Origin: an uncultured Fibrobacter sp.
GTDB taxonomy: Bacteria; Fibrobacterota; Chitinivibrionia; Chitinivibrionales; Chitinispirillaceae
Reading direction: 5' to 3'
DNA: 59,702 nucleotides
Assembly: GCA_964472925.1 (NCBI GenBank)
Contig: CAYYNL010000002.1
Coordinates: 1 to 59,702, forward strand
Shown: piece after piece, positions 27,967 through 51,237 of the stretch
Layout of the letters: the number at the start of each line of letters is the position of its first letter
How positions within the stretch are numbered: the stretch's first letter is position 1
Program-made: the position numbers and the translations under genes
Notes under the pieces: generated by a model
What the model saw: only the letters and a program-made list of their open reading frames with translations
What the model was told of the DNA's origin: nothing
The model's database searches: none

Positions 27967-27968
27967 AA

Positions 27969-30250: not shown

Positions 30251-30381
30251 TTACCTATGGTTCTCTGGTTAGTTTTTTCAGGGTTGATAAAGAAAACCTG
30301 CACTATTAACATGTAACATGAATGCAGAAAATTGTCAATGTTAAAACGTTTAAATTAAAGATTTCCGGTCAAAGATGCTCT

Positions 30382-30816: not shown

Positions 30817-30885
30817 AACTCAGTATCCATTTATCATCAAATTCAAGTATCCGTCCCGATCAAATCTTAATATACACAAAAGCCT

Positions 30886-32043: not shown

Positions 32044-32179
32044 CTGATTAGAAAAGTATAAAGGTTAAACACTAAATTGTCCATGTTTTTTTAACCCTTT
32101 ACCCATTATGTACCCTGATACTATCCTGTTGCATAACTGATTAACCCCAGTTATAATCATTAAGAGGTTACAAAAAAAA

Positions 32180-32500: not shown

Positions 32501-32507
32501 GGTAATA

Positions 32508-33368
32508 ATGCCAGACCAAAAGAAAATAATGGAGAAGATAAGTACTCTCTCTTCCATCCCTACTTTACCTTCTATTATCGGACAGATTACCAGTCTTCTT
32601 CAAAACCCAAAAACCTCTGCAGAAGAACTGGGACGGGCTATTGCATCCGATCAGGCTCTTGCCGCCAAAGTATTAAAACTGGTAAACTCGGCATTCTATG
32701 GATTCCCCGGACGAATCAGCACTATCACCCATGCAATTGTAATACTTGGATTTTCCACCATTAAAAATGTGGTTCTCACAGCTTCTATTCTGGATATATT
32801 CAAAAAGAAATCGGACAATCTCATCGATTTTGATATAGAACAGTTCTGGATGCATTCTATCGCTTGTGGAGCTGCTGCAAAATCAATTGCTCGGTTCACC
32901 GACAATAAAATAAAGGAAGAATGTTTCATTGCAGGTCTGATCCATGATGTAGGTAAAATTCTGCTTTATCAGTATCTTCCGGAACTCTTCATGAAAACGT
33001 ATGCCTTTTCAATCCAGAACAAGCTGCTTTTTTATCAAAGCGAACTGCAATTGTTCCAAATAACCCATCAGGAAATTGGTGGTACTCTGGCAGAAAAGTG
33101 GAATCTTCCGCAAATGCTGCAACAGGCGATCAAATATCATCATACTCCCAATCCGGTTCAGGAGTGTTTTTCCACCAATTCGATTGTCCATTGTGCAGAT
33201 ATTCTGGTAAGAGCTCTTGATTTTGGTAATGGAGGTGATAATAAATTACCTAACTTGTCTGAAATCGCTTGGAAAAGCCTCAATCTTGATGCCATTCCAG
33301 CTTCAACCCTCTTTGACATGATTTCAGATGAAATAGAAAAAGCTACTGCATTTATTCAATTATCCTGA
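32508..33368 (+). CDS. HDOD domain-containing signalling protein
   Basis: LPTLPSIIGQITSLLQNPKTSAEELGRAIASDQALAAKVLKLVNSAFYGFPGRISTITHAIVILGF and GLIHDVGK are canonical HDOD motifs. ATG 32508 chosen. Confidence 0.8.
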   Translation: MPDQKKIMEKISTLSSIPTLPSIIGQITSLLQNPKTSAEELGRAIASDQALAAKVLKLVNSAFYGFPGRISTITHAIVILGFSTIKNVVLTASILDIFKKKSDNLIDFDIEQFWMHSIACGAAAKSIARFTDNKIKEECFIAGLIHDVGKILLYQYLPELFMKTYAFSIQNKLLFYQSELQLFQITHQEIGGTLAEKWNLPQMLQQAIKYHHTPNPVQECFSTNSIVHCADILVRALDFGNGGDNKLPNLSEIAWKSLNLDAIPASTLFDMISDEIEKATAFIQLS

Positions 33369-36991: not shown

Positions 36992-37978
36992 ATGATCATG
37001 CGACCAGCATCTTATACTTATTTATCTGAAAATGAATGGAATGAGCGTATCTCTAAAGCAGAGGCTATTGCTGCAAATTGCCAGCTCTGCCCCAGACGAT
37101 GCCGGGTGAATCGGCTTATTGGAGAAAAAGGATTCTGTGCCGCCCCTGATAAAATGATCATTTCCAGCATTTTCCCTCATCATGGTGAAGAACCCCCGAT
37201 TTCCGGTGAAAAAGGTTCAGGAACGGTCTTCTTCTCTTTTTGTACTCTTAAGTGCTGCTTCTGCCAAAATTACCAGATTTCCCACGAACACGAGGGGAAA
37301 CCTTACTCGATTGAGGAACTGGCCGATAAAATGCTTCATCTTCAGGAGCTTGGATGTCACAACATTAATCTGGTAACCGCAACTCATTTTCTTCCCTGGA
37401 TCCTCAAGTCACTAAGGGAAGCAGCCAAAAAAGGGCTCTATCTTCCCATCGTTTATAATTGCGGGGGTTATGAACTCTGTTCCACTATTTCACTGCTTTC
37501 CGATATTGTTGACATCTATCTTCCAGATATGAAATATGGCATAGAAAAAGCGGCAACCGATTATTCATGTGCTCCTGATTATGTGCAAATTAATAGAGAT
37601 GCAATTAAGGAGATGTTTCGCCATGCTGGACCATTGCGCTTGGATCAAGATGGAATTGCATGGAGAGGTCTTTGTATACGCCATCTGGTGCTTCCGGGTA
37701 ACCTGGAATCCAGCATATCAATCTGTAAATTCCTCAGTTCAACTTTTGATCCTGAAGATATCTCAATAAGCCTCATGGCCCAATACAGGCCTCTTTTTAA
37801 GGCAGATCAATTTGAAGCGCTAAGGAATACTCTTACTCCTGAAAGCTACTCTCTTATCAGGGACAAATTTATTTCTGCAGGATTTGGAGGGTATTACCAG
37901 GAATTGGAACAGTTGGACAAATCATTTCTGATTAACTTTAAGGAGCATAAGGATAAGCCATTGACTGGTAATTCATAG
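36992..37978 (+). CDS. radical SAM protein (PflX-like, pyruvate formate-lyase-activase-related)
   Basis: CPRRCRVNR...GFC N-terminal Cys cluster plus FFSFCTLKCCFCQNYQIS (CX3CX2C), about 330 aa. Confidence 0.8.
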   Translation: MIMRPASYTYLSENEWNERISKAEAIAANCQLCPRRCRVNRLIGEKGFCAAPDKMIISSIFPHHGEEPPISGEKGSGTVFFSFCTLKCCFCQNYQISHEHEGKPYSIEELADKMLHLQELGCHNINLVTATHFLPWILKSLREAAKKGLYLPIVYNCGGYELCSTISLLSDIVDIYLPDMKYGIEKAATDYSCAPDYVQINRDAIKEMFRHAGPLRLDQDGIAWRGLCIRHLVLPGNLESSISICKFLSSTFDPEDISISLMAQYRPLFKADQFEALRNTLTPESYSLIRDKFISAGFGGYYQELEQLDKSFLINFKEHKDKPLTGNS

Positions 37979-38162: not shown

Positions 38163-41100
38163 TTATTCTCCAGATTGGGCTATCCTGCTCATCACAGCAT
38201 CTCTTTCCACTATCATTTCCGGACATTTAAGACTAAAAAATTCCTTGTCACCAAATGGTAACACTGTTTCTGAAAACTTTACCTGCACTCCGTATGGTAA
38301 AATTATCATATTCTGGATATTTCTTTCCCATCTGGCAATCATCGAAGTACTGTTCTGAATATTTACCTGCGCAGATTCGAATAATCTAAAAATAGCCCAA
38401 TCTCCTTTAAATTTGAGCTCATCAGTATAGTTCTGATGAATAAATAAGCTCAAAGTGATCCCGTTTTCCTGTGTTTCTGAAGGCCACTGAAGACATAAAC
38501 TGAGCTTATCATCAACAATCTTATATTCCTGCTTACCTATATTCAATGTACCTCTAATCTTATTACCAGGTAAAGATATAAAATATAACGACTGAACTTT
38601 CAAAGAACCGTCACTGTTAAATATAGAACTACTTATTTTATCTGCTTTCCTTATCATTTCATAAAATAACTCGTTGAACTGAAGATTAATACACCCCACT
38701 AATTTTGACTTCCATTTATCGCCATCTCTAACCAGATAAAAAGACAGATTATTCAGAATAAACCCAAATAATATACCTGTATTAGGCCGTAAAAACTCTA
38801 TCGCTGCATCCAACGGTGCATCCTCTTTTGTCTTGTAAAAAGGATATTTCCCTGACAATTTGCTATTATAGAAATTATATACATTTCTATACCAGATATC
38901 ATTGATCTCTTCCGAGATTAAACTAATAATAGTTTCTGCAGCCATTTCTAAAGGCTTTCTGATAACTGAAATCATGGCAGGTTGTAAATATTCTGGCATT
39001 GACATTATCAGTTTTTCAGTTACTCTCCATGCGTTTAACAATGGATCTTGATCAGTTCCATTAAAAACTTCCAGAAAATTTTTGCTTCCTGCACAGCTTA
39101 TCATTTTATCAGAAATAATATTTAGCTTTTCCTTGTATTCTGATAAGCCCTGTGACCTGACAAGAACCATCAATGGTTTAAAAAACTGATCAATTTTACT
39201 CAGGGTATCTTTTTTCAATATGGCATCATTGGCTACAGAAATATGTTTTTTAACAGATGTGATATTTTTTGCGGTACAACTCTTTGCAGCATTTATCAAA
39301 GCCTTCTCTTTAGGTAATGTATTTACCTTAGATAGTTTTATAACATTATCCAAAAAAACAGAAATGTCAGAACCCTCCACTGTAAGTTTTCTTAAAAATT
39401 GAGCCATACCAGAAATACCTTCCGGTTTCTGGTAATAGACTGATTCCAAAAACGATAACCATTCCCTGCATACATCATCGATATACATGGAATCCAGATC
39501 TGATTTTAATTTTTTTTCATCCTTTATTTCATATCTGATACCATTTTCACCTGTAACCCAGTCTATTATTATAGGATTCTTGATCGAGATTGATATCTCA
39601 TTTTTTACGTACTTGTCCCATCCTTCCTGTGTATAAATAGTATTGATTCTTTTTTTGCTTAAAATTACTCCGTCCCCAATCGAAATCAATGAAGAAGTTT
39701 TCTGTAATCGGCTGGCAAGCGATTCGTAGATAATTTTCGCATCCGGAATCTGTGCAAGATGATTCCTTGCCTGCTTCACTAAGAACGGATTCTGCTGAAT
39801 CAAAGGCATTTCACCAGTTTTTAAAAAATAATTGTATAACCCGATATTCTTTTTCAGTATTGTCTCCAGATTCATCGGCAACTTTTTTATTTTTTTTAGA
39901 TTGATCATAAAAGGGAAAAAGTCATTTTCTATTGTTTCTCGAATAACCACTGTATCTATTCTACTCTGATTTATAGCAACTTCTTCAGAAATAGACAAAT
40001 AAGTTTTTAAATACCTGTAAAGAGATAAGTAATTTTCATATGTCAGATTGTAATTGGATGCGCTGATATTTTTAATACAAGATTCAAGGTATGCTGCCAT
40101 AGGAACACTTAAAAGGTTATATGCCTGTTGAATGTAGATCCTTTTCAATTTATCATAAGTTCTCTCAGTTTTTACAAACCCTATTCCATAGGATAAAGGC
40201 ACTCCAGTCTTGTGAAATGTCCTGAATTTTTCAACCATCTCAGATATATTTTGCATTTGTGTATAAGCATCTATCATTTTACCGTTTTTGGAATAATTCT
40301 TTGTAATTTTTTCATTAATTTGGCCTTTTAATTTTTGTGCTTTTTCATAAGAAAAGAACAGATACAATAACATAAAAATAAAAACCAGAGAATATACCCC
40401 GCACAATGTATAGTATTTTATGCGACCTTTTTTTGTTGTACTCCTGGTTCCCTTCAAAATCTGAATACCACTGGGGAAAACCTCAAAAAATAACCTTTCA
40501 ATAAATAACGTTCCTGGTTTTCGAAATGACTTTTGTTCTGTTCCCCTGAAATAATCCTCATTTCTATGTGGGTTTAGTGGATGACATATTATTGTTTGTG
40601 ATAATTTTGAAGAGATCACACATTCTTTTGGATTTGTTCCTTTTATTTCATTTGTATTACAGCTAACAAAATAAAACCCTTTGAAAACTGGTTTACCTTC
40701 GTATGGATTATCTTTGAACAATTCTTCAAAAAAATCACCAATTTTTTTCTTTATTCCCTCAAATTCAACTAAAAATTGACTTATGAGTCTTCGTGTATTA
40801 TTATTGTTTTCTTTTGCAGATCTTTTCAGATAAAAAGATTTAAGAGAATTACAGATTATTTCGTACTCTTTATTAAACTCTATGCGGGGGAAATCTTTCA
40901 TCCCCTCATTAGCAAATGTAGCGCCTAAAATCTGATCAGACCATTTTTCTGAACCATTATAAAAATATTCTGTAAACCCTGGCATTGAATCCATTTTACT
41001 GAAAATGCAAAATACTGGTAGTTCAATTCCCCAATATCTTATCATTTCATCATATTTACTTCTCAGTTCTTTTGCTGTTTTTCTGATACTCTGCTGAGAG

Positions 41101-41558
41101 CCATTGATTATGCAACCAATATCTATAATACAAATAGTACAATCGACAGGTCTTTTCCGACGTATCTTTGCCAAAGACTGATAAACTGATTCAAATAACT
41201 CATTATTTTCTGAATTGTATAATTTTCCTGGAAAATCTAACCATATAGCATTATTTCCTGAGAACCATTTTATCCCAGATGAGCTTTCATCATCATTGTC
41301 TATGGGATATCTGAACTGAAAACTTAGTCCAGATTCAGCCAATACAGTACTCTTTCCACTATTTTCAGGCCCGGTTATCATGAACCACGGGATATCATAC
41401 AAAGCATGATTTATAAATAATCTTCCTGGCTTCACCGTTTTTAAATAGCTCTTTATCGCAGTTTTAAACTCTTTCTGGACCTGATATGACATCTGATTTT
41501 CTATTGAAAATGAGTGAGATAGTTTTTTATTGGTCTTTTCTTTCTTCATAAATAACAT
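38163..41558 (-). CDS. tssM: type VI secretion membrane subunit TssM (IcmF family), N-terminally truncated architecture
   Basis: LYDIPWFMITGPENSGKSTVL (TssM Walker A region) at residues 54-73. Single TM near residues 382-404. C-terminal IcmF_C-like region (SGKYPFYK ... LQWPSE ... KGDWAIFRLFESA). Confidence 0.85.
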   Translation of the reverse strand: MLFMKKEKTNKKLSHSFSIENQMSYQVQKEFKTAIKSYLKTVKPGRLFINHALYDIPWFMITGPENSGKSTVLAESGLSFQFRYPIDNDDESSSGIKWFSGNNAIWLDFPGKLYNSENNELFESVYQSLAKIRRKRPVDCTICIIDIGCIINGSQQSIRKTAKELRSKYDEMIRYWGIELPVFCIFSKMDSMPGFTEYFYNGSEKWSDQILGATFANEGMKDFPRIEFNKEYEIICNSLKSFYLKRSAKENNNNTRRLISQFLVEFEGIKKKIGDFFEELFKDNPYEGKPVFKGFYFVSCNTNEIKGTNPKECVISSKLSQTIICHPLNPHRNEDYFRGTEQKSFRKPGTLFIERLFFEVFPSGIQILKGTRSTTKKGRIKYYTLCGVYSLVFIFMLLYLFFSYEKAQKLKGQINEKITKNYSKNGKMIDAYTQMQNISEMVEKFRTFHKTGVPLSYGIGFVKTERTYDKLKRIYIQQAYNLLSVPMAAYLESCIKNISASNYNLTYENYLSLYRYLKTYLSISEEVAINQSRIDTVVIRETIENDFFPFMINLKKIKKLPMNLETILKKNIGLYNYFLKTGEMPLIQQNPFLVKQARNHLAQIPDAKIIYESLASRLQKTSSLISIGDGVILSKKRINTIYTQEGWDKYVKNEISISIKNPIIIDWVTGENGIRYEIKDEKKLKSDLDSMYIDDVCREWLSFLESVYYQKPEGISGMAQFLRKLTVEGSDISVFLDNVIKLSKVNTLPKEKALINAAKSCTAKNITSVKKHISVANDAILKKDTLSKIDQFFKPLMVLVRSQGLSEYKEKLNIISDKMISCAGSKNFLEVFNGTDQDPLLNAWRVTEKLIMSMPEYLQPAMISVIRKPLEMAAETIISLISEEINDIWYRNVYNFYNSKLSGKYPFYKTKEDAPLDAAIEFLRPNTGILFGFILNNLSFYLVRDGDKWKSKLVGCINLQFNELFYEMIRKADKISSSIFNSDGSLKVQSLYFISLPGNKIRGTLNIGKQEYKIVDDKLSLCLQWPSETQENGITLSLFIHQNYTDELKFKGDWAIFRLFESAQVNIQNSTSMIARWERNIQNMIILPYGVQVKFSETVLPFGDKEFFSLKCPEMIVERDAVMSRIAQSGE

Positions 41559-41577
41559 CTTTGGCCATCTTTTTCTT

Positions 41578-42513
41578 TCAGTTTTTTCCTTGAATTACCA
41601 ACCAATACTCTTCACCATTTCCCCCTGGTTCACCACATATACTGTCAATTCCTAAAGATGCATTATCAGTTCCCAGATTGACGGAAATCATGTTTTCTGT
41701 TGTATATTTCACTTTCACATCATATTCCAGATATTGTGGGAGATAAGAATTTATTATTTTAAAAACACCTGAAATGAAACCTGACCCGCTGTTATAAGAT
41801 CTGATAGAATGAGAATGGTCCAGTTCCAAAATAACCGAAAATTTACCTGACCGATCTATTATTCTTTCTCCCAAAACGATATTATCAGAAAGTACCATAT
41901 CTTTGCCAAGCACCCCTAAACAATCAACCTTCACCCATTGTGAACACCATTGCTCGATATATACTTTCACTCCATCACAATAATCACTTATCATTTCAAT
42001 AAGACAATTAATATTTCCATATACTCTTGTCATTAAACCATAACAGTATGATAAATCTATTTCTTCCTTATTCGATTGTATGGATTTTGGAGCCTGACTT
42101 TTCAGAAAGAAGCTTATATCATTTTTTGATAATGGAAATTGATAACATTTTTTCCATGCCTGAAAAAATAAAACATATAGTCGGTTGTCAAAAATGTTTA
42201 AAAAATCGGTTAAGGGGTTCTTCTCACGACTGTGCATTGCTCCATACTCTAAAAAATAGTTTGGCAAAGGAGAACTAATCCCCATAAGCCCTAAAAAAGA
42301 AAGCACTACATTCAAACCATCTTGATCTCTGACTACCTTTTCTACATCACTGCAAGGAAATGCTATTTCCTGATTAGATGACAATCTTATAAGCCTGGAC
42401 CATGAACTATACTCCCCTGCATTAATACCGAAATACTCTTCCATCATCACCAAAATTTGGAATGCATCGAACTCATGACCCCTTTTAAGTAAATCATTTA
42501 TCAGATCAGGCAT
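41578..42513 (-). CDS. tssG: type VI secretion baseplate subunit TssG
   Basis: 311 aa. N-terminal FDAFQILVMMEEYF (TssG F-x-F-Q-x-x-x-x-L-E pattern). Directly follows tssF. Confidence 0.8.
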   Translation of the reverse strand: MPDLINDLLKRGHEFDAFQILVMMEEYFGINAGEYSSWSRLIRLSSNQEIAFPCSDVEKVVRDQDGLNVVLSFLGLMGISSPLPNYFLEYGAMHSREKNPLTDFLNIFDNRLYVLFFQAWKKCYQFPLSKNDISFFLKSQAPKSIQSNKEEIDLSYCYGLMTRVYGNINCLIEMISDYCDGVKVYIEQWCSQWVKVDCLGVLGKDMVLSDNIVLGERIIDRSGKFSVILELDHSHSIRSYNSGSGFISGVFKIINSYLPQYLEYDVKVKYTTENMISVNLGTDNASLGIDSICGEPGGNGEEYWLVIQGKN

Positions 42514-42526
42514 TCATTTACCTTTT

Positions 42527-44251
42527 TTATAACAGATTCCAGGTCAGTATTTTATCGGAAGGTTTCAAAATAAACTGAAGCTCACAGAAATTATTTACTT
42601 GCATATATTGATTAAACAGATTCAAAAGTATCAGTCCAAACAGATGAAGGTCTTGTGTATCTTTAAACACCTCCTCTTCAATGGTAACAACAAAACGTAT
42701 CCCGAATATGAGACAACCCCTATATGCTTTATGCACCGGTTCGCTTTTTACATCGGTAACAGATTCTATTATGTAATTTTTCTCTTCAAGACCTGACCAG
42801 TTATATAGATGAAGATATTTCCTTAGCACTTCTTTATCTGCTAATCTTTTTATATTTGCCACCAGATTAGTATGAAAAGCCCATACATATTCATCATTTT
42901 CTGGAGGAGATACCGGCAATGATGGCCGTGTAATATTGGAAATTTTTATGTAATCAGGAAAACCTTTTCCTAAACTGTTAATATCTCCTTCATAAACCAT
43001 GTCTCTGGGAAACCTTCCGTTTGTGCACCATGCTTCAATTACTATTATCTCTTCCTTTATCTCTTTTCCGAAAAGATTAGAACCTCCAAACGAAATATTC
43101 ATCTGCCGCTTTCCTTCTGCAGTATAAACGAATCGTGTGGTATATGTATTGGCAGATCTATTTCTGACATTTCTAAATGTATAGTAAGGCTCATACACAG
43201 TTTTCTCACCTGTTACTTTGTTTATTCCTGTTACAGAATGAATACTATGTACAGCCATATTTTCAGATTCATAATCTGCAACCACCCGATATTCAGGCTG
43301 TGTCCCGTTTTTCACCACAGGTTCTGCGTTCTTTAGAAACATATTTACAACAGGACTACAATATAGCCTGAATATGGAAGAGGAAAATTCTCTTCCCACA
43401 GGAAACCGTTCTGAAATGGTTATTCTTATGATAATTGTCTCAGGAGTCGTTTGGGGCTCTGGCAGAGTATCTATTCCTCTGAATTCAATGAATTGAAACT
43501 TTTCAGGAAATGCAAAATATTCCTTTAATAAATTATGTCCATAGAAAGATCGTTTGGAAGTCGGTAAAATTGTCTCATCGATCTCAAAACCTCCAGCTTT
43601 AATGGCTTCCCTTGGATCGATGGAGTAATGCGTTCCATCTTTTGTATATTGCACTTCGAACTTTTTCGCTTCAGTGGTAAATAAACGATGCAAAGTCATG
43701 GCAACAGGATATTCTGCATATAGAAAGATGCTTATTTTTTTTAAGTCGTACTTTTCCCATTTGACCGAAGTATCCAGACTGAATTCAAAAGTAAAAACGT
43801 CGTTATTCTGGTTATCACTTTCTTTTTTTACTGCAACTAATAATAATGGATTAAATACTATCGGTTTAACAGTTCTGAACCTGCATATATCCAAACCAGG
43901 ACCTATTTGACCGGTAGTTATTTCTGATCCTGCAGGTAAGATTCTGCTCTCTTGAAGAAATCCTGCTCGTGGCTCAAATTGGACTATGGCCAAAGATGGT
44001 ATTTCCTGGAAAAACTGTGGCCATATCAGATTTATAAGTCCTTCTGTCAACCTGGGCAGAGATTCATCCAGTTTCTCACGAATCCTTCCTGCAATAAATG
44101 CAAAACCCTCAAATAAGCGTTCCACATATGGATCCCGATCCCCAAGAGAATCGATATTAAGATAACGTGCAAGCTGTGGATGAGCTTTGGCAAATTCAGC
44201 TCCGGACTCATAAAGATATCGAAGTTCCTCTTCGTAATATTTTTCTATCAC
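42527..44251 (-). CDS. tssF: type VI secretion baseplate subunit TssF
   Basis: KYYEEELRYLYESGAEFAKAHPQLARYL ... DPYVERLFEGFAFIAGRIREKLDESLPRLTEGLINLIWPQF is the canonical TssF N-terminus. Confidence 0.9.
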   Translation of the reverse strand: MIEKYYEEELRYLYESGAEFAKAHPQLARYLNIDSLGDRDPYVERLFEGFAFIAGRIREKLDESLPRLTEGLINLIWPQFFQEIPSLAIVQFEPRAGFLQESRILPAGSEITTGQIGPGLDICRFRTVKPIVFNPLLLVAVKKESDNQNNDVFTFEFSLDTSVKWEKYDLKKISIFLYAEYPVAMTLHRLFTTEAKKFEVQYTKDGTHYSIDPREAIKAGGFEIDETILPTSKRSFYGHNLLKEYFAFPEKFQFIEFRGIDTLPEPQTTPETIIIRITISERFPVGREFSSSIFRLYCSPVVNMFLKNAEPVVKNGTQPEYRVVADYESENMAVHSIHSVTGINKVTGEKTVYEPYYTFRNVRNRSANTYTTRFVYTAEGKRQMNISFGGSNLFGKEIKEEIIVIEAWCTNGRFPRDMVYEGDINSLGKGFPDYIKISNITRPSLPVSPPENDEYVWAFHTNLVANIKRLADKEVLRKYLHLYNWSGLEEKNYIIESVTDVKSEPVHKAYRGCLIFGIRFVVTIEEEVFKDTQDLHLFGLILLNLFNQYMQVNNFCELQFILKPSDKILTWNLL

Positions 44252-44691
44252 TTTTTAACCTCCTGATTCATTTTGTTGGAAATTTCAGGAGGTTGATTTG
44301 GAATAAGAACCGTATGGAACATTACTTCTGGTCCTTCTATAATTTCTGCTGATATAACAAAAAAGATATTGCCACTATTTCCTTCCGATTCTAATGCTTC
44401 TACCTGGACATTCTTAAGCCTTGTTTCATACTTTTTAACTGTATCCCTTATAGCTTCCTTTAATCTTCTTATTCCTTCGGGTGTTGATCGGTAAATTTCT
44501 GAAAACTCCGGAATTCCATAATCTGCCAGATGTTGAATTGAACCACGCCTAGTGTTAAGAAGACGAAAGAGATGATCCATGATTGATTTTGTTTTTTGAT
44601 AACCCGCTGGCACCGATTCAACAGGATTTCCATCCAGAAATTTTCCAGTCAGACATTCAAATAAACCTGTCTTCACCCATTTTTCTCCCAT
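44248..44691 (-). CDS. tssE: type VI secretion baseplate subunit TssE (gp25-like)
   Basis: SIMDHLFRLLNTRRGSIQHLADYGIPEF is the gp25/TssE signature. Start moved to ATG 44691 because the ORF-track start at 44793 overlaps hcp by 35 nt. ATGA overlap with tssF. Confidence 0.8.
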   Translation of the reverse strand: MGEKWVKTGLFECLTGKFLDGNPVESVPAGYQKTKSIMDHLFRLLNTRRGSIQHLADYGIPEFSEIYRSTPEGIRRLKEAIRDTVKKYETRLKNVQVEALESEGNSGNIFFVISAEIIEGPEVMFHTVLIPNQPPEISNKMNQEVKK

Positions 44692-44758
44692 CCTGCTTTG
44701 ATTAAAACCCAAGAAAAACCGATCCTCCGGCTTTTTCCGGAGGATTTTAATTTTTCTC

Positions 44759-45235
44759 TTAACGACCTTCCAACCAGGAATCGGTATGCACATACCCCCC
44801 TTCCGGATACTCCCAGGTTATCTTTCCATATCTGAAACTTACTTTTTCCATATGCACAAATCGTTCAAATTCTCTGGCTTTTACATTATACATAATCGGT
44901 TCTACAGAACAGACTTTTACAGTTTCCAGAAGATGACTGAAATAAAGCACCTCTGCCCCCTGATCATCGATTTTATACCAATCCACTTTCATTTTATCGT
45001 ATGTTATCCCTTCACAGACTGCTTTATAAAGAAGTGGAGAAGATTGGTCAAATGCTTTTATGATCTGAAAGGCTTCATGTTTCCTGGTTCCGGTTAATGC
45101 ACCTGTATCCGGGTCGGTAGGGATCCTAACTTCATGGTGAAACTCCAAAACCTCAATACTGTTTTCTCTGCCAGCAACAGTACATCCTCCCTTAATTTTG
45201 CCATCATTAATCCACATGTAGGCTGGTATAGGCAT
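44759..45235 (-). CDS. hcp: type VI secretion tube protein Hcp (TssD)
   Basis: 158 aa. MPIPAYMWINDGKIKGGCTVAGRENSIEVLEFHHEVRIPTDPDTGALTGTRKHEAF matches the Hcp1 family pattern. Confidence 0.9.
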   Translation of the reverse strand: MPIPAYMWINDGKIKGGCTVAGRENSIEVLEFHHEVRIPTDPDTGALTGTRKHEAFQIIKAFDQSSPLLYKAVCEGITYDKMKVDWYKIDDQGAEVLYFSHLLETVKVCSVEPIMYNVKAREFERFVHMEKVSFRYGKITWEYPEGGYVHTDSWLEGR

Positions 45236-45338
45236 AAGATCTCCTTTAATGTTAATGGTGAAGCAAATTACTCATTATTTTTTGAGCATCTTTTTATTTA
45301 TGATTAATTACGCAGATCATATACAATTGATAATGCTC

Positions 45339-46895
45339 TTATTTGCCTTTGGGCATCTGACTTACAAGAAATAGACTTACATCAATTCCTTCTATCTGAA
45401 AATGCGGTATAACCGATAATGAAACAGAAAAGAATCCTGGATTATCTGTTAACTCATTTACACTCACCTCGGCTGCTTTCAATGGATGTGTTGCAATAAG
45501 CTGCGGACCCGGATCAGGCATTTCGGTAACCAATCCCTTTATCCATTTATTTAACTCCTCCTGAAGTACTGCTTTGCTTTTAGTAGTTCCGATATTTTCC
45601 CGTTGGATTATTTTCAGATAATGAGCTATCCTGGAAATCATGAAAATGTAAGGCAATCTTGAATTAACCTTTAAATTCGCATTTACATCAGGATTATCAG
45701 TTGGAACAATTTTCTGAGCAGAATTGGCAGAAAAGAAACATGCGTAATTGCTATTCTTATAATATGACAATGGAATAAATCCTTCATTGGCGAACTCAAA
45801 TTCGCGGGTTTCCGGTATTAATATCTCGGTAGGAATCTTCATCTGCGTTCCCTTTCCGGCATCGAAAAAATGAACCGGCAAATCCTCTATCTTTCCTCCC
45901 GATTCAGGGCCACGAATCTGAACACACCATCCATTTTCAACAAAAGAACGAATCATATTGGAAGCAAATGCGAATGAACTGTTTCCCCACAGATATTTCT
46001 GATGATCCTTACCTGTTACTTTTTCAGTGTAATTAAATTCCTTTACTGCAACAGTATCTGGTCCGTATGGAAGCCTCAATGTAAATCTGGGCAAAGTTAA
46101 ACCCACATATCTGGCATCCTCTGTTCTCCTAAATGAATTCCACCTCATAAATTCTGAACGATCCATGAATGTATGCAGATCTTCTATTTTTGTCAATTCA
46201 CTAAAGTCTTTTTTGCCGAAAAAACCTGGTGAAACAGCACCAATAAAAGGGCAGTGACATGCAGCAGCAACCTTGGAAATATTTTGGAGAAATCCAATAT
46301 CCTCTGCAGTATTATTGAATTCAAAATTGGAGATCATTGCCCCATAAGGTTCTCCACCAGGAGTATCATATTCATCTGTGTATACCTGTTTATATATACC
46401 GGATTGAATTATTTCTGCAGCATCCTCGAAATCTTCATTAATCACCTCCTTTGCTACATCCAGAAGATCTATTTTCACATTTTTGTGAAAGTCAGTCCTG
46501 TCTACCAGAAATTTCAGACTCCTCCAGGCGGATTCCATACTTTGAAAATCCGGATGATGCATTATTTCATCAAGCTGTTCTGATATTTTACTGTCAATTT
46601 GAGCGATTATCATGTCAATAAGATTTTTATCAACCTTTTCTATGCTCATTTCATTAAGAACAATACTTTCCATGAAAAATTTCAATGCTGCACCTATTCG
46701 TTCATTTGAACTGCTCTCTGCCAAAGCTGATATTTCCGCATATATCATCACATCAATCTCTTTTTGTGGAATTGTCAGCTCCATAGAGTCGTATATATAT
46801 TGTAAATGATTTTGAATTTCAGTAGGGTTCTTCTGCATTTCCATCTTTTCATTTAACATGAATTGCTCCTCACCATAACCATTTTTACGATTCAA
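45339..46895 (-). CDS. tssC: type VI secretion contractile sheath large subunit TssC
   Basis: 518 aa of VipB/EvpB-type sequence (WRSLKFLVDRTD, GEPYGAMISNFEF, AAACHCPFIGAVSP, RLPYGP, NAQKI). Follows tssB. Confidence 0.9.
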   Translation of the reverse strand: MNRKNGYGEEQFMLNEKMEMQKNPTEIQNHLQYIYDSMELTIPQKEIDVMIYAEISALAESSSNERIGAALKFFMESIVLNEMSIEKVDKNLIDMIIAQIDSKISEQLDEIMHHPDFQSMESAWRSLKFLVDRTDFHKNVKIDLLDVAKEVINEDFEDAAEIIQSGIYKQVYTDEYDTPGGEPYGAMISNFEFNNTAEDIGFLQNISKVAAACHCPFIGAVSPGFFGKKDFSELTKIEDLHTFMDRSEFMRWNSFRRTEDARYVGLTLPRFTLRLPYGPDTVAVKEFNYTEKVTGKDHQKYLWGNSSFAFASNMIRSFVENGWCVQIRGPESGGKIEDLPVHFFDAGKGTQMKIPTEILIPETREFEFANEGFIPLSYYKNSNYACFFSANSAQKIVPTDNPDVNANLKVNSRLPYIFMISRIAHYLKIIQRENIGTTKSKAVLQEELNKWIKGLVTEMPDPGPQLIATHPLKAAEVSVNELTDNPGFFSVSLSVIPHFQIEGIDVSLFLVSQMPKGK

Positions 46896-46935
46896 TTAAT
46901 ATTAAACCCAAATCATATCCGAAACAGGTTAAATC

Positions 46936-47457
46936 TTAAGCCTCATTGACAGTTTTCTCTGTTGAATCCGGAATTAGTTTTTTTAATTCTCCTAGTAATG
47001 CTTTTGAAGATTCGTTATCTTTTAAGATCCCCTCCAGACGTCTTCTGAATTCTCTGTTATCTATCAGATTCGATTTAAGATCTTTGAGTAGATTCCTCGC
47101 GGCTAAAAGCCTGCTTATAGCTGGAATATTTTTGGCCACATACTCAGGTCTGAATGATTTCATATTTTTGATTTTTAAATGAACTTCAAGCATTTTATCC
47201 TTTTCTCTGGAAAGCTTGTCATCAACTGCATAATCCAACGACAGACCCATCCCCTCCATAACCTGCTCCAGATTATTTTTGTTGATACTAATTTTTTCCA
47301 TATCAGAAATTCTCTCAGATTTCTTCTTCTTTGAAAAATCACCTGTAACCAGAATTTTAAATGGCAACTCCACTTTTTTCCTGGTATCCCCTTTTCCTAC
47401 ATCCAGTTTTAAATTGATCCTGGCAGGCGGTATCTCATTTTGAAAACTCCCGGCCAT
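46936..47457 (-). CDS. tssB: type VI secretion contractile sheath small subunit TssB
   Basis: MAGSFQNEIPPARINLKLDVGKGDTRKKVELPFKILVTGDFS is canonical VipA/TssB. ATG 47457 (AAAGG upstream) preferred. The ORF-track start at 47475 would overlap tssA. Confidence 0.9.
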   Translation of the reverse strand: MAGSFQNEIPPARINLKLDVGKGDTRKKVELPFKILVTGDFSKKKKSERISDMEKISINKNNLEQVMEGMGLSLDYAVDDKLSREKDKMLEVHLKIKNMKSFRPEYVAKNIPAISRLLAARNLLKDLKSNLIDNREFRRRLEGILKDNESSKALLGELKKLIPDSTEKTVNEA

Positions 47458-47461
47458 ATTA

Positions 47462-48976
47462 TTACCTTTCATCAAAAGATTGATAATTTAATGCAGCTCC
47501 CGGATCCAAATTACACATCATTTTCAGAGCATTATCTCTTTTATCAATAAGTACAGATCTTTTATCTCCAGATTTATCTTTTGCCATTAACTCATAGGTT
47601 TTTACCATAAGATTAAGAAGATCCACAACCAGCGATGGTACCCATTTGGCCAAATAATAAGTATTAGCCAGTTCGTAAAGTGATTCCAGCATATATAAAG
47701 CAATTTCAAGCCTTTTTACTTCGAGCATATAAGAAACAATCGATAATCTTCTTCTGAAATTATCAAGCTCGTTTCCGTCACTTCTAATTTCATCTACCAG
47801 ATGCACCAGATCGGTTTCAGTATTGCTTGCAACTACAGAGGACTTTATGCCTTCCTTTTCCACTCTGCCTGAATTATCACCCACTTTATTAAAGTTGCAA
47901 AACAGCGGGATTATATCATGCTTAATCCATCTTTCTGTTTCAGAATCACTGAATGGTGTACCATCTATAAATTTCAATTCCCTTATTTGCGGATATTTGT
48001 TCAGAAACATGGCAGTTTCAAAAGTAATAGTCTCCTTAACTCCAGCAAATGTAACCCCGAGATTATCAGCAGCATTAGCTGAAATTCTTTGCAATTCAAA
48101 CCAGAAAAGCGTATTGCCTGAACTGAACATTTTTTCCGATTGAACTAATGCAGATTTGTAATCTCTCTTTTCCAGTAATGATATCAAATACTCTCTTCTT
48201 TCTTTTGATGGGGGTTCGATCTTTGTTATTTTTTCTTCTGCAAATGGAAGCATTTCAACATTACTCCAACGTATAATCCTCATTAACCGGTAACCGGCAG
48301 TTTTTTGCGGCTCCTTCTCTATTAAAAACAAAGCACACTTGCGAATCGTATCGAATGCAGCTTTGGCTGTTTCAAATTCACCAGATGATTCGCTTATTAT
48401 TGAATTCTCCTTTGAAACATATTCTTTGGAAGATTCTTTATTTTCAATTGGTTGTGAAATTTCCGCCTGTTTCTTCTCAGTCAATTGTCGCCATTTTTTA
48501 GCGAATGCATAAAGCTTCTCTGGAAAAGGGGATGATTCTGGAAAATTTAAGGTGAGAGAGTCCCTCAGATTATCTAATACCGAAGCCAACCGATCCATTT
48601 GATCATGAGCATCACTGGAGACTGTAGCGTTTTCAAGCATCTCTGTAAACCTGCTCTCTTCCAGCCATTTAAATGCCATCCTTTTTCCCTGCAGCCGCCT
48701 GGGAAATAAAGAATCAAATCTTTCTTTGGTTAAGTGTACCAATGCTTCGAAAAGATCAACAAAATAGCACCAGTTCTCTTTTTTCAGATAACATAATGCC
48801 AGGTAAGAAAACACACGAATGTCTTTACTTTTATTATTCAGTATATAACAGGCTTTTTCTTCAACAAGCTCGTAATCAATACATTCTGACTTGCTGACTT
48901 CTTGCTTAATAGTTTCGAAATCAGAGTCGTAATTTAACTCACTTCCACAGTCATTTTCACTAAAGACTGCCTTCAA
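47462..48976 (-). CDS. tssA: TssA-like protein (ImpA N-terminal domain family)
   Basis: N-terminal ENDCGSELNYDSDFETIKQEVSK fits the ImpA_N motif (G-x-D/E-L-x-Y-D-x-x-F). First gene of the locus. TTG start in the ORF track, true start uncertain. C-terminal domain not recognised. Confidence 0.65.
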   Translation of the reverse strand: MKAVFSENDCGSELNYDSDFETIKQEVSKSECIDYELVEEKACYILNNKSKDIRVFSYLALCYLKKENWCYFVDLFEALVHLTKERFDSLFPRRLQGKRMAFKWLEESRFTEMLENATVSSDAHDQMDRLASVLDNLRDSLTLNFPESSPFPEKLYAFAKKWRQLTEKKQAEISQPIENKESSKEYVSKENSIISESSGEFETAKAAFDTIRKCALFLIEKEPQKTAGYRLMRIIRWSNVEMLPFAEEKITKIEPPSKERREYLISLLEKRDYKSALVQSEKMFSSGNTLFWFELQRISANAADNLGVTFAGVKETITFETAMFLNKYPQIRELKFIDGTPFSDSETERWIKHDIIPLFCNFNKVGDNSGRVEKEGIKSSVVASNTETDLVHLVDEIRSDGNELDNFRRRLSIVSYMLEVKRLEIALYMLESLYELANTYYLAKWVPSLVVDLLNLMVKTYELMAKDKSGDKRSVLIDKRDNALKMMCNLDPGAALNYQSFDER

Positions 48977-49743
48977 TGAATTTAAAAGGATTTCAGAAAT
49001 GAGATCCTCCTGGTTGTTTTTTATTCCAGTTTTTAAACCTTCAGAATTCCAGAAACAGCTCAGCCAGAAATGAGAAAAAAGGAAAGGAAATTTAAATGGA
49101 ATACTCAGAAAAGATGAAGCATAAAATGGAAATGCTGTTACATTAATATAATTGAAAGTAATACTGTTAAAAACAAGTATCTTTCAAATTGGCTGACATT
49201 TCCATCAAAACGCTCCTGATAAGAACGATTTTCTTATGTATAATATAATTTGGGATTAGACTGACTGTGTATTTCAGTTTTCACTTTTTTTATTAATTTA
49301 TACAATAGGAATGGCCAAATTTGCTGATGGTTGCCTGGGAGTTCCCGGATTTTTTCCTTTTTTCACCATGTTCATCCAAATAGAAGCTTATCTCTTCAGA
49401 CACGAATGAAGCATTGCATAAACCTGACAAATTGAAGAATTGTTTAAATAACTCAGTTATAATTTATTTTTCCCTATCATTAAAGACAGCAGTAAAAACA
49501 GCATTATTTCTGATGATGGCTATTTAGGCAGTAAGTGAAATTAGTTCAATTTTAATATTATCAAATCAAAGTCTCTCTACTAAAGAATATTAAGGCATTA
49601 TGTATTTTCGCTATTTAGTTCTGGTTTTCTCTCTGATCCGATTCTCTTTCTGATTATCCCTGTTTATTCCTTTTCTTTTAATATTTCTCTCTTATTACTG
49701 TATTATTTCGATTTAACTCTGATTTCAACAAGGACTCCCGCTT

Positions 49744-51237
49744 ATGAATAAATACTATCTGGAAATAATTCGCGGAATTGACCTCGGAAAAAGATATGCA
49801 TTGGTTGAAGGGGTAATTACGATAGGTCGCAGTGATGATAATCTGATAATTCTCAATGAAAACGAACTGTTGGTTTCAAATCATCACGCTATTCTTTATA
49901 TATACCCAAATAATATCTGCATCCAGGATATAAACAGCAGAAATGGAACATATCTTAATGGCCAACGAATCAGTCTCAATGAGGTAAAGCTAAATGATAT
50001 AATCGGCTTCGGTGAAAAAGGTCCCCAACTGAAACTTATCTGTACTACTGAAGATATCACTCAAAATGAGTCCGTTTTGCAAACACCATGTATCTCTAAG
50101 GTTGAAATCTCCTGCATTAATGATAGCCCACCCGAATCAGCATCGATCTTCACTACAGATATTGAGCATAAAATTATGAATAACAGTATTAATGCAGATG
50201 AATTGACGAAGTTAATGGAGCAAAGTGCTTCTCTTAAGAAGATACTTCAAAAAGGAAATCTTCCTGAAACTCAATCTAATCTTCTCTTTAGCGATTACGG
50301 AACCCATCAAAGAAACCGTATCCGTATTATAATGCTGACATGTTCCATCATTCTCTTTTCACTTTTCTCTATAGCATATCTTACAATCCGGTTTTTTCAA
50401 ATTAAATCAAAACCAGATTCAGAACTCATCTCTAAAATGACAGAGAATAAAAAATCAATTGATTCACTACTTTTTAGTTTCAGTCAACCAATCCAGATAG
50501 ATCATCTTAGATCTCTATTCAATACATGGGATTATCAACCTGTCATTAAAGATACAATAGATTTTTTTCTTTATGAGATATTATCCGGTTTTGGGCACAC
50601 CGACTACCAGATCCCTCCACAGATGTCAACTACCGTTAAACGTCATCTGGAAACCTATTCCCAAACCCAAAGATTAATGACCAGCAGATTATTAAAAAGA
50701 AAAGAGCTCTACTTTCCTATGATTCAGAAAATATTTTCGGAGAAAAATATACCGTCTCAGTTAGCCTATATTTCTATGCTTGAGAGCGGTTTTAATCCTA
50801 AAGCATTGAGTCATGCAGGTGCAAGGGGCCTGTGGCAGTTTATGCCACATACTGCACGAAAATATGGATTGAAAGTTGACAGCTTTTCTGATGAACGTAT
50901 TGAGCCACAAAAAGCCACTTATGCAGCAGCAGAATATCTTAGAGACCTTATTGGAATTTTTGGAGCAAAAAGTTCAATTATGCTTGTCATGGCAGCTTAC
51001 AACGCAGGTGAGGAAAGAATTATGAATGCTCTTCGGAAAATTGAAGATCCTATTCGTGACCGTGATTTCTGGTATATTTATAGAATGGGTTACCTGTCAG
51101 AGGAAACAAATGAGTATATTCCCAGAATACTTGCTTTAATGATAATAGATAATAATCGTGAGTATTTCGGCTTCACAAATCAAGATATCGCGACTACCCA
51201 AATTGGCGAAACTGAGGATGACTATTGCAATTGGTGA
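49744..51237 (+). CDS. FHA domain - TM helix - MltD-type lytic transglycosylase (SLT) fusion protein
   Basis: FHA: ITIGRSDDNLIILNENELLVSNHHAILYIYPNNICIQDINSRNGTYLNGQRI. TM near residues 194-216. SLT: AYISMLESGFNPKALSHAGARGLWQFMPHTARKYGL ... AAAEYLRDL ... LVMAAYNAGEERI. Confidence 0.8.
   Translation: MNKYYLEIIRGIDLGKRYALVEGVITIGRSDDNLIILNENELLVSNHHAILYIYPNNICIQDINSRNGTYLNGQRISLNEVKLNDIIGFGEKGPQLKLICTTEDITQNESVLQTPCISKVEISCINDSPPESASIFTTDIEHKIMNNSINADELTKLMEQSASLKKILQKGNLPETQSNLLFSDYGTHQRNRIRIIMLTCSIILFSLFSIAYLTIRFFQIKSKPDSELISKMTENKKSIDSLLFSFSQPIQIDHLRSLFNTWDYQPVIKDTIDFFLYEILSGFGHTDYQIPPQMSTTVKRHLETYSQTQRLMTSRLLKRKELYFPMIQKIFSEKNIPSQLAYISMLESGFNPKALSHAGARGLWQFMPHTARKYGLKVDSFSDERIEPQKATYAAAEYLRDLIGIFGAKSSIMLVMAAYNAGEERIMNALRKIEDPIRDRDFWYIYRMGYLSEETNEYIPRILALMIIDNNREYFGFTNQDIATTQIGETEDDYCNW

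What the first reader, a model, noticed from the sequence alone, without database searches (positions are those of the whole stretch)
38163..48976. Compact eight-gene T6SS locus (tssA-B-C-hcp-E-F-G-M) with no tssJ, tssK, tssL, vgrG or clpV in 59.7 kb
Seen: eight same-strand ORFs with gaps from -4 to about 100 nt encode recognisable TssA (ImpA_N motif), TssB, TssC, Hcp, TssE, TssF, TssG and TssM. A convergent radical SAM gene closes the block on one side and a 767-bp divergent spacer closes the other. None of the other ORFs of 60 aa or more in the window resembles TssK, TssL, TssJ, VgrG or ClpV; the ORFs of comparable size are clearly TolB, TolC-like and UGPase. Established: proteobacterial T6SS-i loci normally carry 13 core genes. 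Bacteroidota T6SS-iii lacks TssJ/L/M but keeps TssK and VgrG. Francisella T6SS-ii and Amoebophilus T6SS-iv differ again. Inference: a TssM-positive locus with no linked TssJ/L/K does not fit those categories. It could be an undescribed minimal or re-wired T6SS architecture, or one half of a split locus whose remainder lies beyond the PAAR gene at the window edge.
Basis: partly seen in the sequence, partly recalled or inferred. Interest (0 to 1): 0.85.

Follow-up and report, generated by a model that had tools for sequence, protein, structure and literature searches.

The report
One half of a split T6SS
The eight-gene cluster is the larger half of an ordinary proteobacterial-type (T6SS-i) type VI secretion system in an uncultured Fibrobacterota bacterium; the apparently missing tssK, tssL and vgrG sit in a second small gene module on another contig, so it is not a new minimal system.

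Summary
Window 38163-48976 (minus strand) encodes TssA-B-C-Hcp-E-F-G-M. No other ORF in the 59.7 kb is TssJ, K, L, VgrG or ClpV.

The "minimal T6SS" reading fails. The organism is an uncultured Fibrobacterota from anaerobic digesters. In the four metagenomes that hold contigs 99.8% identical to the window, a second contig carries vgrG, a Ser/Thr kinase and a PEGA protein, divergent from tssK-tssL. All three core genes pass NCBIfam cut-offs. A sister species has both modules in one assembly, at least 100 kb apart if they share a replicon. Two relatives (TssC 81% and 76% identical) have both modules side by side. TssC and TssK clades match, and dN/dS is 0.03-0.27 in both modules.

Real departures remain. 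clpV lies between tssG and tssM in Chitinispirillia relatives but is absent from this clade's locus. TssJ was seen in no Fibrobacterota locus. TssM lacks the N-terminal two-helix membrane hairpin. A conserved divergent gene fuses FHA, a membrane helix and an SLT lytic transglycosylase.

Verdict: a split, ClpV-less T6SS-i variant of modest interest. Still open are genome-wide ClpV and TssJ, and physical linkage of the two modules in this species.

The parts
38163..41558 (-). tssM (IcmF-like inner-membrane/periplasmic subunit, 1131 aa). It has a single membrane helix at about residues 380-405 and lacks the N-terminal TM1-TM2 hairpin.
   Evidence: Pfam IcmF-related_N, IcmF-related, IcmF_helical and IcmF_C. 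TIGR03348 at 388 bits against a 388.15 cut-off, with the alignment starting at model position 81. Hydropathy compared with Simiduia TssM. PDB EAEC TssM matches only from residue 434 onward.
41578..42513 (-). tssG (baseplate wedge)
   Evidence: PF06996 5e-38. TIGR03347 at 133 bits, just under its 143 cut-off.
42527..44251 (-). tssF (baseplate wedge)
   Evidence: PF05947 2e-128; TIGR03359 at 457 bits.
44248..44712 (-). tssE (gp25-like). The ORF extends to 44793 but public gene calls give 154 aa, so the start is uncertain.
   Evidence: PF04965; TIGR03357 at 94.8 bits. Gene calls in L003/L005.
44759..45235 (-). hcp (tube)
   Evidence: PF05638; TIGR03344. The identical protein is indexed in 159 blocks of the public assembly collection.
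45339..46859 (-). tssC (sheath large subunit, 506 aa; the ORF extends to 46895)
   Evidence: VipB + VipB_2; TIGR03355 at 643 bits. Best PDB matches are T6SS-i sheaths. 57-61% identical to enterobacterial plasmid TssC.
46936..47457 (-). tssB (sheath small subunit, 173 aa; the ORF extends to 47475)
   Evidence: PF05591; TIGR03358.
47462..48976 (-). tssA (ImpA_N + VasJ type)
   Evidence: PF06812 + PF16989; TIGR03362 at 235.9 bits against a 230.1 cut-off.
48977..49743 (.). 767-bp divergent intergenic region between tssA and the FHA-SLT gene, presumably holding both promoters
   Evidence: No ORF. Sigma-70-like hexamer matches are not above chance. No sigma-54 -24/-12 match lies inside it.
49744..51237 (+). 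FHA - membrane helix - SLT lytic transglycosylase fusion (497 aa), a conserved divergent partner of tssA
   Evidence: Pfam FHA, Yop-YscD_cpl and SLT. Membrane helix at about 192-220. PDB SLT and FHA hits. Adjacent to tssA in L001-L006, L011-L013, L035, L036, L046 and L097. dN/dS 0.16.
58502..59702 (+). PAAR-domain protein with a long C-terminal extension (471 aa in full; cut by the window end). It is an orphan spike-tip or effector gene.
   Evidence: PF05488 3e-18. Full length seen in L007.

Best explanation
The eight genes, together with the divergent FHA-TM-SLT gene, form module 1 of a two-module T6SS of the proteobacterial type (T6SS-i). The host is an uncultured Fibrobacterota bacterium from anaerobic digesters; the nearest MAG is labelled 'Fibrobacter sp.'. 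Module 2 lies on another contig. It reads vgrG - (small four-helix-bundle gene) - membrane Ser/Thr kinase with periplasmic TPR - PEGA protein, divergent from tssK - tssL. Orphan PAAR genes such as the one at the window edge supply spike tips or effectors. In relatives all of this is one contiguous cluster, so the window's clade split it by rearrangement. The same clade lost clpV, which in Chitinispirillia sits between tssG and tssM.

How it works is inferred from established T6SS-i biology. TssL and the single-pass TssM form the envelope complex. TssK-TssEFG-VgrG-PAAR form the baseplate. TssA primes Hcp tube and TssBC sheath polymerisation, and contraction fires the spike. I further infer that the kinase and the FHA domain gate assembly by threonine phosphorylation, as PpkA, TssL-pThr and Fha do in Agrobacterium. 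The fused SLT domain would then cut peptidoglycan locally so that the complex can span the wall. Sheath recycling would rely on an unlinked Clp ATPase or on none, as in Campylobacter jejuni.

Shown: gene identities, the existence and conservation of module 2, contiguity in relatives, purifying selection and the missing TssM hairpin. Inferred: that module 2 lies in the very same genome as the window, all functional coupling, and how the system does without ClpV and TssJ.
For: Gene identities come: VgrG TIGR03361 at 260 bits (cut-off 186), TssK TIGR03353 at 361 (cut-off 100), TssL TIGR03349 at 156 (cut-off 90).

The phylum comes: 19 of the 21 confirmed TssF relatives carry Fibrobacterota-group names, and the best is 86% identical.

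Same populations: window-identical contigs (99.8%) come from JGI samples 3300020813, 3300023203, 3300023207 and 3300029799. The module-2 contigs come from exactly those four samples plus one more.

Sister species: TssC (93% identical) lies on scaffold_13 and TssK on scaffold_112 of the same assembly ERZ28595025. Both are also present in SRR13358444.

Contiguous state: in L097/L098 (TssC 81%) the order is tssF-E-hcp-C-B-A | FHA-SLT | kinase, PEGA | tssK, tssL. Isolate ANBcel5 (L036) has tssL-tssK | PEGA-kinase-DUF2169 | FHA-SLT | tssA...tssG-clpV-tssM.

Congruence: the TssC and TssK identity matrices give the same clade structure. Divergence from the sister species is similar in both modules: 68-96% against 71-83% identity, and dS 0.62-0.89 against 0.66-1.06. 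dN/dS is 0.03-0.27 for all 14 genes.

clpV lies between tssG and tssM in L013, L035, L036 and L051-L054 but is absent in the window, L001, L002/L011, L012 and L046.
Against: No read or contig physically joins module 2 to the window sequence; blastn found no overlap. The four samples may belong to one study, so the 4-of-4 co-occurrence is weaker than it looks.

Module-2 genes have higher GC (0.42-0.46) than module-1 genes (0.32-0.41). The sister species shows the same trend more weakly. Tetranucleotide similarity does not discriminate among these Fibrobacterota.

clpV and tssJ were found nowhere for this clade. The ClpV N-domain metagenome scan used a single 9-residue pattern and returned no contig from the four samples, which is only a weak negative. 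The TssC N-terminal helix region stays conserved in the ClpV-less clade, which would fit a trans-encoded ClpV.
Confidence: 0.85

Rival explanations
1. The remainder lies immediately beyond the window edge. On this view the system is one extended locus, in which Tol-Pal genes, a kinase-like gene and the PAAR/effector region were inserted between the FHA-SLT gene and the kinase-PEGA | tssK-tssL block. This was the first reader's guess, and it differs from my best explanation only in distance.
For: Window-type contigs in four assemblies all break in or just after the PAAR gene. Four of the six module-2 places shown (L038, L039, L040, L042) start 472 bp downstream of vgrG. Placed end to end, the order would be FHA-SLT(+) ... 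PAAR(+) | vgrG(-) kinase(-) PEGA(-) tssK(+) tssL(+). This reproduces the orientation seen in the contiguous relative L097.
Against: There is no sequence overlap between L007, which extends 1.3 kb past the window, and L037, which extends 2.8 kb past vgrG. In the sister species the modules sit on scaffolds of 367 kb and 137 kb, at least about 100 kb apart, with different flanks. In Chitinispirillum alkaliphilum TssK and TssC are also on different contigs.
Confidence: 0.25
2. The eight-gene cluster is a decaying or non-functional remnant. The tssK-tssL-vgrG contigs would then belong to another Fibrobacterota species living in the same digesters.
For: There is no physical linkage. Module-1 genes are unusually AT-rich (GC 0.35; tssM 0.32) against flanks of 0.40 and module 2 at 0.42-0.46. 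clpV has been lost.
Against: All eight ORFs and the FHA-SLT gene are intact. They are under purifying selection against the sister species, with dN/dS 0.03-0.27. The identical Hcp is found on contigs with three different flanking contexts. The number and branching of TssK clusters mirror those of TssC clusters in the clade. The sister species shows the same two-module pattern in one assembly.
Confidence: 0.07
3. It is a genuinely minimal or re-wired T6SS that works with TssM but without TssK, TssL and VgrG.
For: None of these genes lies within 59.7 kb. TssM lacks the N-terminal hairpin.
Against: Canonical tssK, tssL and vgrG exist throughout the clade and co-occur with the cluster. The single-pass TssM is also present in relatives whose tssK and tssL are adjacent (L036). 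A PAAR gene implies a VgrG partner, from established T6SS knowledge.
Confidence: 0.03

Closest known systems
Canonical T6SS-i of Pseudomonadota (for example the enterobacterial plasmid systems of Cronobacter sakazakii and Rahnella aquatilis)
   Same: TssA, B, C, Hcp, E, F, G, K, L, M, VgrG and PAAR are all recognised by T6SS-i equivalog models. TssC is 57-61% identical. The best PDB sheath matches are T6SS-i.
   Different: The host is Fibrobacterota, whereas a 2026 review still describes T6SS-i as restricted to Pseudomonadota (PMC13584744). The genes lie in two modules rather than one cluster. clpV and tssJ were not found, whereas Rahnella has tssH and an OmpA/TagL-like gene in the locus. TssM has one membrane helix instead of three.
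T6SS clusters of cultured Chitinispirillia (Chitinispirillales bacterium ANBcel5; Chitinispirillum alkaliphilum ACht6-1, whose genome paper PMC4814513 mentions a T6SS and Rhs toxins)
   Same: Same gene order: FHA-SLT | tssA-B-C-hcp-E-F-G-(clpV)-M. Same kinase and PEGA proteins, and same single-pass TssM. TssC is 76-78% identical.
   Different: These relatives keep clpV between tssG and tssM. ANBcel5 has tssK and tssL in the same cluster and a DUF2169 gene. The window clade has lost clpV and DUF2169 from the locus and separated tssK-tssL-vgrG.
ClpV-less T6SS of Campylobacter jejuni and Helicobacter hepaticus (PMC3667781)
   Same: A T6SS-i-type cluster without a ClpV gene. In C. jejuni this was shown experimentally to function. 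It also has an FHA (TagH) protein.
   Different: A different phylum. C. jejuni keeps all other core genes, including tssJ, K, L and vgrG, in one 17-kb cluster. Function has not been tested here.
TssJ-less membrane complexes (Acinetobacter, with TsmK and TagX; PMC10564176, PMC13584744)
   Same: No recognisable TssJ in the locus. A dedicated peptidoglycan-cleaving enzyme is associated with the system.
   Different: Acinetobacter uses an L,D-endopeptidase (TagX) and TsmK. Here the enzyme is an SLT lytic transglycosylase fused to an FHA domain, and a PEGA membrane protein is conserved. Absence of TssJ is not proven genome-wide.
Threonine-phosphorylation control (PpkA - TssL-pThr - Fha in Agrobacterium, PMC3953482) and MltE recruitment in EAEC (Santin and Cascales 2017, cited in PMC13584744)
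   Same: A membrane Ser/Thr kinase next to tssK and tssL, an FHA protein next to tssA, and a lytic transglycosylase activity linked to the system.
   Different: The FHA and transglycosylase functions are fused into one membrane protein. No PppA phosphatase was seen. The coupling is inference only.

Membership tests
T6SS-i (13 core components) | TssB/TssC contractile sheath | tested here: met
   TIGR03358 at 149 bits and TIGR03355 at 643 bits, both above cut-off. PDB T6SS-i sheaths at E of about 1e-137.
T6SS-i (13 core components) | Hcp tube (TssD) | tested here: met
   TIGR03344 at 143 bits against a 58.9 cut-off.
T6SS-i (13 core components) | TssE, TssF and TssG baseplate wedge | tested here: met
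   TssE and TssF are above their cut-offs. TssG scores 133 bits against a 143 cut-off but passes Pfam PF06996 at 131 bits against 24.6.
T6SS-i (13 core components) | TssA (ImpA_N) | tested here: met
   TIGR03362 at 235.9 bits against 230.1; ImpA_N + VasJ.
T6SS-i (13 core components) | TssM (IcmF-like, normally with three membrane helices) | tested here: met
   All four IcmF Pfam domains are present. TIGR03348 scores 388 bits, 0.15 below its cut-off, because model positions 1-80 (TM1-TM2) are missing. There is one membrane helix only. It is a member with a truncated N-terminus.
T6SS-i (13 core components) | TssK baseplate subunit | tested here: met
   Not in the window. Present on the second contig in the same four samples, with TIGR03353 at 361 bits against a 100 cut-off. 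Same-genome assignment is inferred, not proven.
T6SS-i (13 core components) | TssL (DotU) | tested here: met
   It follows tssK on the second contig, with TIGR03349 at 156 bits against a 90 cut-off. It is the short form without a peptidoglycan-binding domain. Same caveat as for TssK.
T6SS-i (13 core components) | VgrG spike (TssI), plus PAAR | tested here: met
   VgrG of 720 aa on the second contig, with TIGR03361 at 260 bits against a 186 cut-off. PAAR is in the window.
T6SS-i (13 core components) | ClpV (TssH) sheath-recycling ATPase | tested here: inconclusive
   Absent from the window. Absent from both modules in the window species and the sister species. Present between tssG and tssM in Chitinispirillia. 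The N-domain scan of metagenome contigs found none from the four samples but used only one pattern. A whole-genome search was not possible.
T6SS-i (13 core components) | TssJ outer-membrane lipoprotein | tested here: inconclusive
   No TssJ family hit in the window or in the precomputed Pfam lists of any Fibrobacterota locus seen. TssJ is small and divergent, and the rest of the genome could not be searched.
T6SS-iii (Bacteroidota) | TssN-R membrane complex and no TssA, TssL or TssM homologues (as stated in PMC13584744) | tested here: not met
   TssA and TssM are in the window, and TssL is on the second contig.
T6SS-ii (Francisella) | IglA/IglB-type sheath and Igl/Pdp-specific proteins | tested here: not met
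   IglB is the weakest PDB sheath match, at 291 bits against 447-461 for the top five T6SS-i chains. The IglI family model scores 41 bits against a 100 cut-off.
Threonine-phosphorylation pathway (PpkA / Fha / PppA) | Ser/Thr kinase, FHA protein and phosphatase encoded with the T6SS | tested here: inconclusive
   The kinase (Pkinase domain, membrane helix) lies next to tssK, and the FHA protein next to tssA. No PP2C phosphatase was seen in either module. Phosphorylation cannot be tested here.

The most novel reading that the evidence does not exclude
Fibrobacterota carry a T6SS-i with a re-wired envelope-spanning part. It has a single-pass TssM without the N-terminal hairpin, a short TssL and no TssJ at all. 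Two lineage-specific membrane proteins would be obligatory assembly factors: an FHA-TM-SLT fusion that couples phospho-threonine signalling directly to local peptidoglycan cutting, and a PEGA protein with a C-terminal membrane hairpin. In the window's clade the machine would fire without any dedicated ClpV.
Probability: 0.35. Interest if true: 0.55.

Novelty: new variant of a known kind. Interest (0 to 1): 0.3.

Why it matters
The striking claim, a TssM-positive T6SS with no TssK, TssL or VgrG, does not hold: those genes are simply encoded elsewhere. This is a reminder that calling genes absent from one window is unsafe in lineages that scatter T6SS genes.

What remains is modest but real. A proteobacterial-type T6SS-i is widespread in Fibrobacterota, a phylum outside the usual textbook range. 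One clade lost clpV yet keeps every other part under purifying selection. The phylum-wide FHA-TM-SLT fusion suggests a direct link between kinase signalling and cell-wall opening during assembly. Cultured Chitinispirillia (ANBcel5, C. alkaliphilum) could be used to test that link.

Tried and rejected
1. I looked for TssK, TssL and VgrG in the 10-kb flanks of 19 Fibrobacterota TssF loci. Most flanks were housekeeping genes. This showed only that Chitinivibrionales scatter their T6SS genes (tssM | tssEFG-clpV alone).
2. I followed PAAR homologues hoping for a linked vgrG. The closest one (76% identical) is another orphan among housekeeping genes.
3. A metagenome scan with an alignment of ClpV N-domains gave 36 ClpV loci, none from the window's samples. 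Only one peptide pattern was used, so this is a weak negative.
4. Tetranucleotide comparison was meant to tie module 2 to the window. It does not discriminate among low-GC Fibrobacterota.
5. Cluster-member look-up for shared MAG accessions returned no usable accessions.
6. No sigma-54 promoter motif lies in the 767-bp spacer. The sigma-70 scan was not above chance. Rfam and tRNA searches found nothing.
7. LysM in the PAAR protein's extension was suspected by eye, but Pfam does not report it, so I dropped the claim.
8. T6SS-i subclade (i1-i5) assignment was not attempted, because I had no trustworthy labelled reference set. PDB and plasmid comparisons show T6SS-i only.


Full report
OBSERVATION

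Eight minus-strand ORFs between 38163 and 48976 match the expected families in both Pfam and NCBIfam. In gene order they are TssA, TssB, TssC, Hcp, TssE, TssF, TssG and TssM. Most scores exceed the curated T6SS-i equivalog cut-offs. TssG (133 against 143 bits) and TssM (388 against 388.15 bits) fall just below theirs, although both clear their Pfam cut-offs.

Public gene calls for identical proteins put the true starts of TssB, TssC and TssE a little inside the maximal ORFs. The intergenic gaps then run from -4 to 103 nt.

I packed the other 48 non-overlapping ORFs of 60 aa or more into pseudo-proteins and scanned them against Pfam. They encode glycosyltransferases, an RND efflux pump, NrdD, a pilMNOPQ type IV pilus cluster, iPGM, the Tol-Pal proteins and similar housekeeping functions. 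The only further T6SS item is a PAAR protein that starts at 58502 and runs off the window end.

tblastn with Fibrobacterota TssK, TssL, VgrG, ClpV, kinase, PEGA and DUF2169 proteins found no remnant in any frame.

The divergent gene 49744-51237 encodes an FHA domain, one membrane helix and an SLT lytic-transglycosylase domain. It sits next to tssA in every relative examined.

WHOSE GENOME

The Hcp protein occurs unchanged on many metagenome contigs from biogas and digester samples. A scan of species-representative genomes with TssF returned almost only Fibrobacterota: Fibrobacter sp., Chitinispirillaceae and Chitinivibrionales. The best hit is 86% identical, in MAG AS22ysBPME_152.

Contigs 99.8% identical to the window come from JGI samples 3300020813, 3300023203, 3300023207 and 3300029799. 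All of them break inside or just after the PAAR gene.

WHERE THE MISSING GENES ARE

The cultured isolate Chitinispirillales bacterium ANBcel5 has a single cluster. It reads tssL-tssK (minus), PEGA-kinase-DUF2169 (plus), FHA-SLT (minus), then tssA-B-C-hcp-E-F-G-clpV-tssM (plus). Canonical TssK and TssL therefore exist in this phylum.

I used the ANBcel5 TssK as a query. One hit, P0265, lies on contigs from exactly the four samples that hold the window sequence, plus a fifth. Those contigs carry:
- vgrG (720 aa)
- a small four-helix-bundle gene
- a Ser/Thr kinase with a membrane helix and TPR region
- a PEGA protein
- divergently, tssK (452 aa) and tssL (236 aa)

VgrG, TssK and TssL all pass NCBIfam cut-offs.

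In a sister species (TssC 93% identical) the eight-gene locus lies on scaffold_13 (367 kb) of assembly ERZ28595025. The vgrG-kinase-PEGA | tssK-tssL module lies on scaffold_112 (137 kb) of the same assembly. Both are also present in SRR13358444. From the positions within the scaffolds, the modules are at least about 100 kb apart if they share a replicon. A third species shows the same module 2.

In an intermediate relative (TssC 81% identical) the two modules are adjacent: tssF-E-hcp-C-B-A | FHA-SLT | kinase-PEGA | tssK-tssL, followed by an RCC1/Ig protein. An RCC1/Ig protein also follows tssL in the window species.

In Chitinispirillum alkaliphilum, TssK and TssC lie on different contigs. In Chitinivibrionales, tssM | tssEFG-clpV stands alone among housekeeping genes. 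Scattering of T6SS genes is thus common in this phylum.

ARE BOTH MODULES ONE SYSTEM IN ONE LINEAGE?

The identity matrices of TssC and TssK give the same structure. Each shows a tight group of five or six species, then one outlier (P0126 and P0257), then the contiguous relative (P0127 and P0252), then Chitinispirillia.

Divergence between the window species and the sister species is similar in both modules. Identity is 68-96% against 71-83%, and dS is 0.62-0.89 against 0.66-1.06. All 14 genes have dN/dS of 0.03-0.27, so both modules are maintained by selection.

The weak points are these:
- No physical link exists in the window species.
- The four samples may be related to one another.
- Tetranucleotide similarity does not discriminate.
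- Module-2 genes are more GC-rich (0.42-0.46) than module-1 genes (0.32-0.41). The sister species shows this more weakly, and contiguous relatives do not show it.

I put 0.85 on the split-locus explanation.

Whether module 2 lies right beyond the PAAR gene in this species is open. Both contig types end at that sort of variable region. The orientations would reproduce the order seen in L097. No overlap was found, however, and the sister species argues for distance.

WHAT IS REALLY UNUSUAL

1. clpV. In L013, L035, L036 and several metagenome loci, clpV sits between tssG and tssM. In the window, L001, L002/L011, L012 and L046 that gap is 7-80 nt and holds no clpV; in the window it is 19 nt with no remnant. 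A scan with ClpV N-domains found no contig from the window's samples, but it used a single pattern. The N-terminal TssC region stays conserved in the ClpV-less clade, so an unlinked ClpV or ClpB cannot be excluded. A functional ClpV-less T6SS is known in C. jejuni (PMC3667781).
2. TssJ. It was never seen in any Fibrobacterota locus, but the genomes could not be searched. TssJ-less systems are known in Acinetobacter (PMC13584744, PMC10564176).
3. TssM. It begins directly with the Walker A region and has one membrane helix. The same holds in the sister species and ANBcel5. A gammaproteobacterial TssM has three helices.
4. The FHA-TM-SLT fusion. Its FHA residues and its SLT Glu-Ser and GLWQ motifs are intact by inspection of the sequence. 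Dozens of 50%-identity clusters in the protein library share the full-length architecture, so it is a sizeable family.

MECHANISM

The mechanism is inferred from established T6SS-i biology, as reviewed in PMC13584744 and PMC3953482. It is a standard contractile injection machine. The kinase and FHA pair probably gates assembly. The fused SLT domain probably opens the peptidoglycan at the assembly site, combining the roles played separately by Fha and MltE or TagX in Pseudomonadota. None of this was tested.

CLASSIFICATION

TssA, TssL and TssM exclude T6SS-iii. The sheath is closest to T6SS-i structures and far from Francisella IglB. TssC is 57-61% identical to enterobacterial plasmid TssC. The subclade was not resolved.

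A T6SS in this phylum has been mentioned once in passing (PMC4814513), and NCBI already names these proteins in MAGs. No paper in the searchable library describes the system.

VERDICT

This is a split T6SS-i with lineage-specific variations, not a new minimal architecture.

Noticed in passing
window 57048-58501: A 1.45-kb stretch upstream of the PAAR gene has no ORF of 60 aa or more in any frame (GC 0.37). It has no Rfam family, no tRNA, and no similarity to VgrG, ClpV, TssK or TssL proteins. Its nature is unknown; it could be a regulatory region or a decayed gene.
   Followed up: partly
window 38163-51237 versus the rest; L039 1-9300: Module-1 genes are markedly AT-rich (GC 0.35; tssM 0.32) compared with their flanks (0.40) and with the module-2 genes (0.42-0.46). 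The sister species shows the same trend more weakly. Relatives with a contiguous cluster show none. This is unexplained.
   Followed up: partly
window 36992-37978; L022 5999-6985: The radical SAM gene convergent with tssM has a close homologue (E 5e-135) in a distant Fibrobacteraceae MAG. There it lies between the FHA-SLT gene and tssE. This could be conserved synteny or a functional link; I did not examine it.
   Followed up: no
window end 59702; L007-L010 ends; L038-L040, L042 starts: Four independent assemblies break inside or just after the PAAR gene's C-terminal extension. The module-2 contigs all start 472 bp downstream of vgrG. This fits strain-variable effector cassettes at both places.
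   Followed up: partly
L022 2526-4172: A 548-aa protein upstream of the FHA-SLT gene has an N-terminal stretch that weakly resembles TssB/VipA (Pfam E 0.029, below the cut-off; no NCBIfam hit). It may be a lineage-specific T6SS accessory protein.
   Followed up: partly
L038 3119-3574: A four-helix-bundle gene (TIGR02436, '23S rRNA intervening sequence protein') is inserted between vgrG and the kinase gene in the window species. It is absent there in the sister species.
   Followed up: no
L013 18853-19749; L036 21475-: In ClpV-containing Chitinispirillia a gene of about 290-300 aa follows tssM. It has a signal peptide and C-terminal membrane segments, with no family hit. The window has no homologue. 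It is a possible extra envelope component lost together with clpV.
   Followed up: partly
window 44759-45235: The Hcp protein is 100% identical on contigs with three different flanking contexts (L001, L002/L004/L006, L003/L005). It is indexed in 159 blocks of the public assembly collection. It is 96% identical to the sister species' Hcp, whose TssM is only 68% identical. This is unusually strong conservation of the tube protein.
   Followed up: no
window 25175-33368: A type IV pilus assembly cluster (pilM, N, O, a 511-aa ORF of unknown family, and the secretin pilQ) is followed by PilZ- and HDOD-domain genes. It is unrelated to the finding.
   Followed up: no
window 7544-9777: Two adjacent ORFs (200 and 544 aa) have N-terminal hydrophobic, signal-peptide-like starts and no Pfam family. 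By eye they could be outer-membrane beta-barrel proteins.
   Followed up: no
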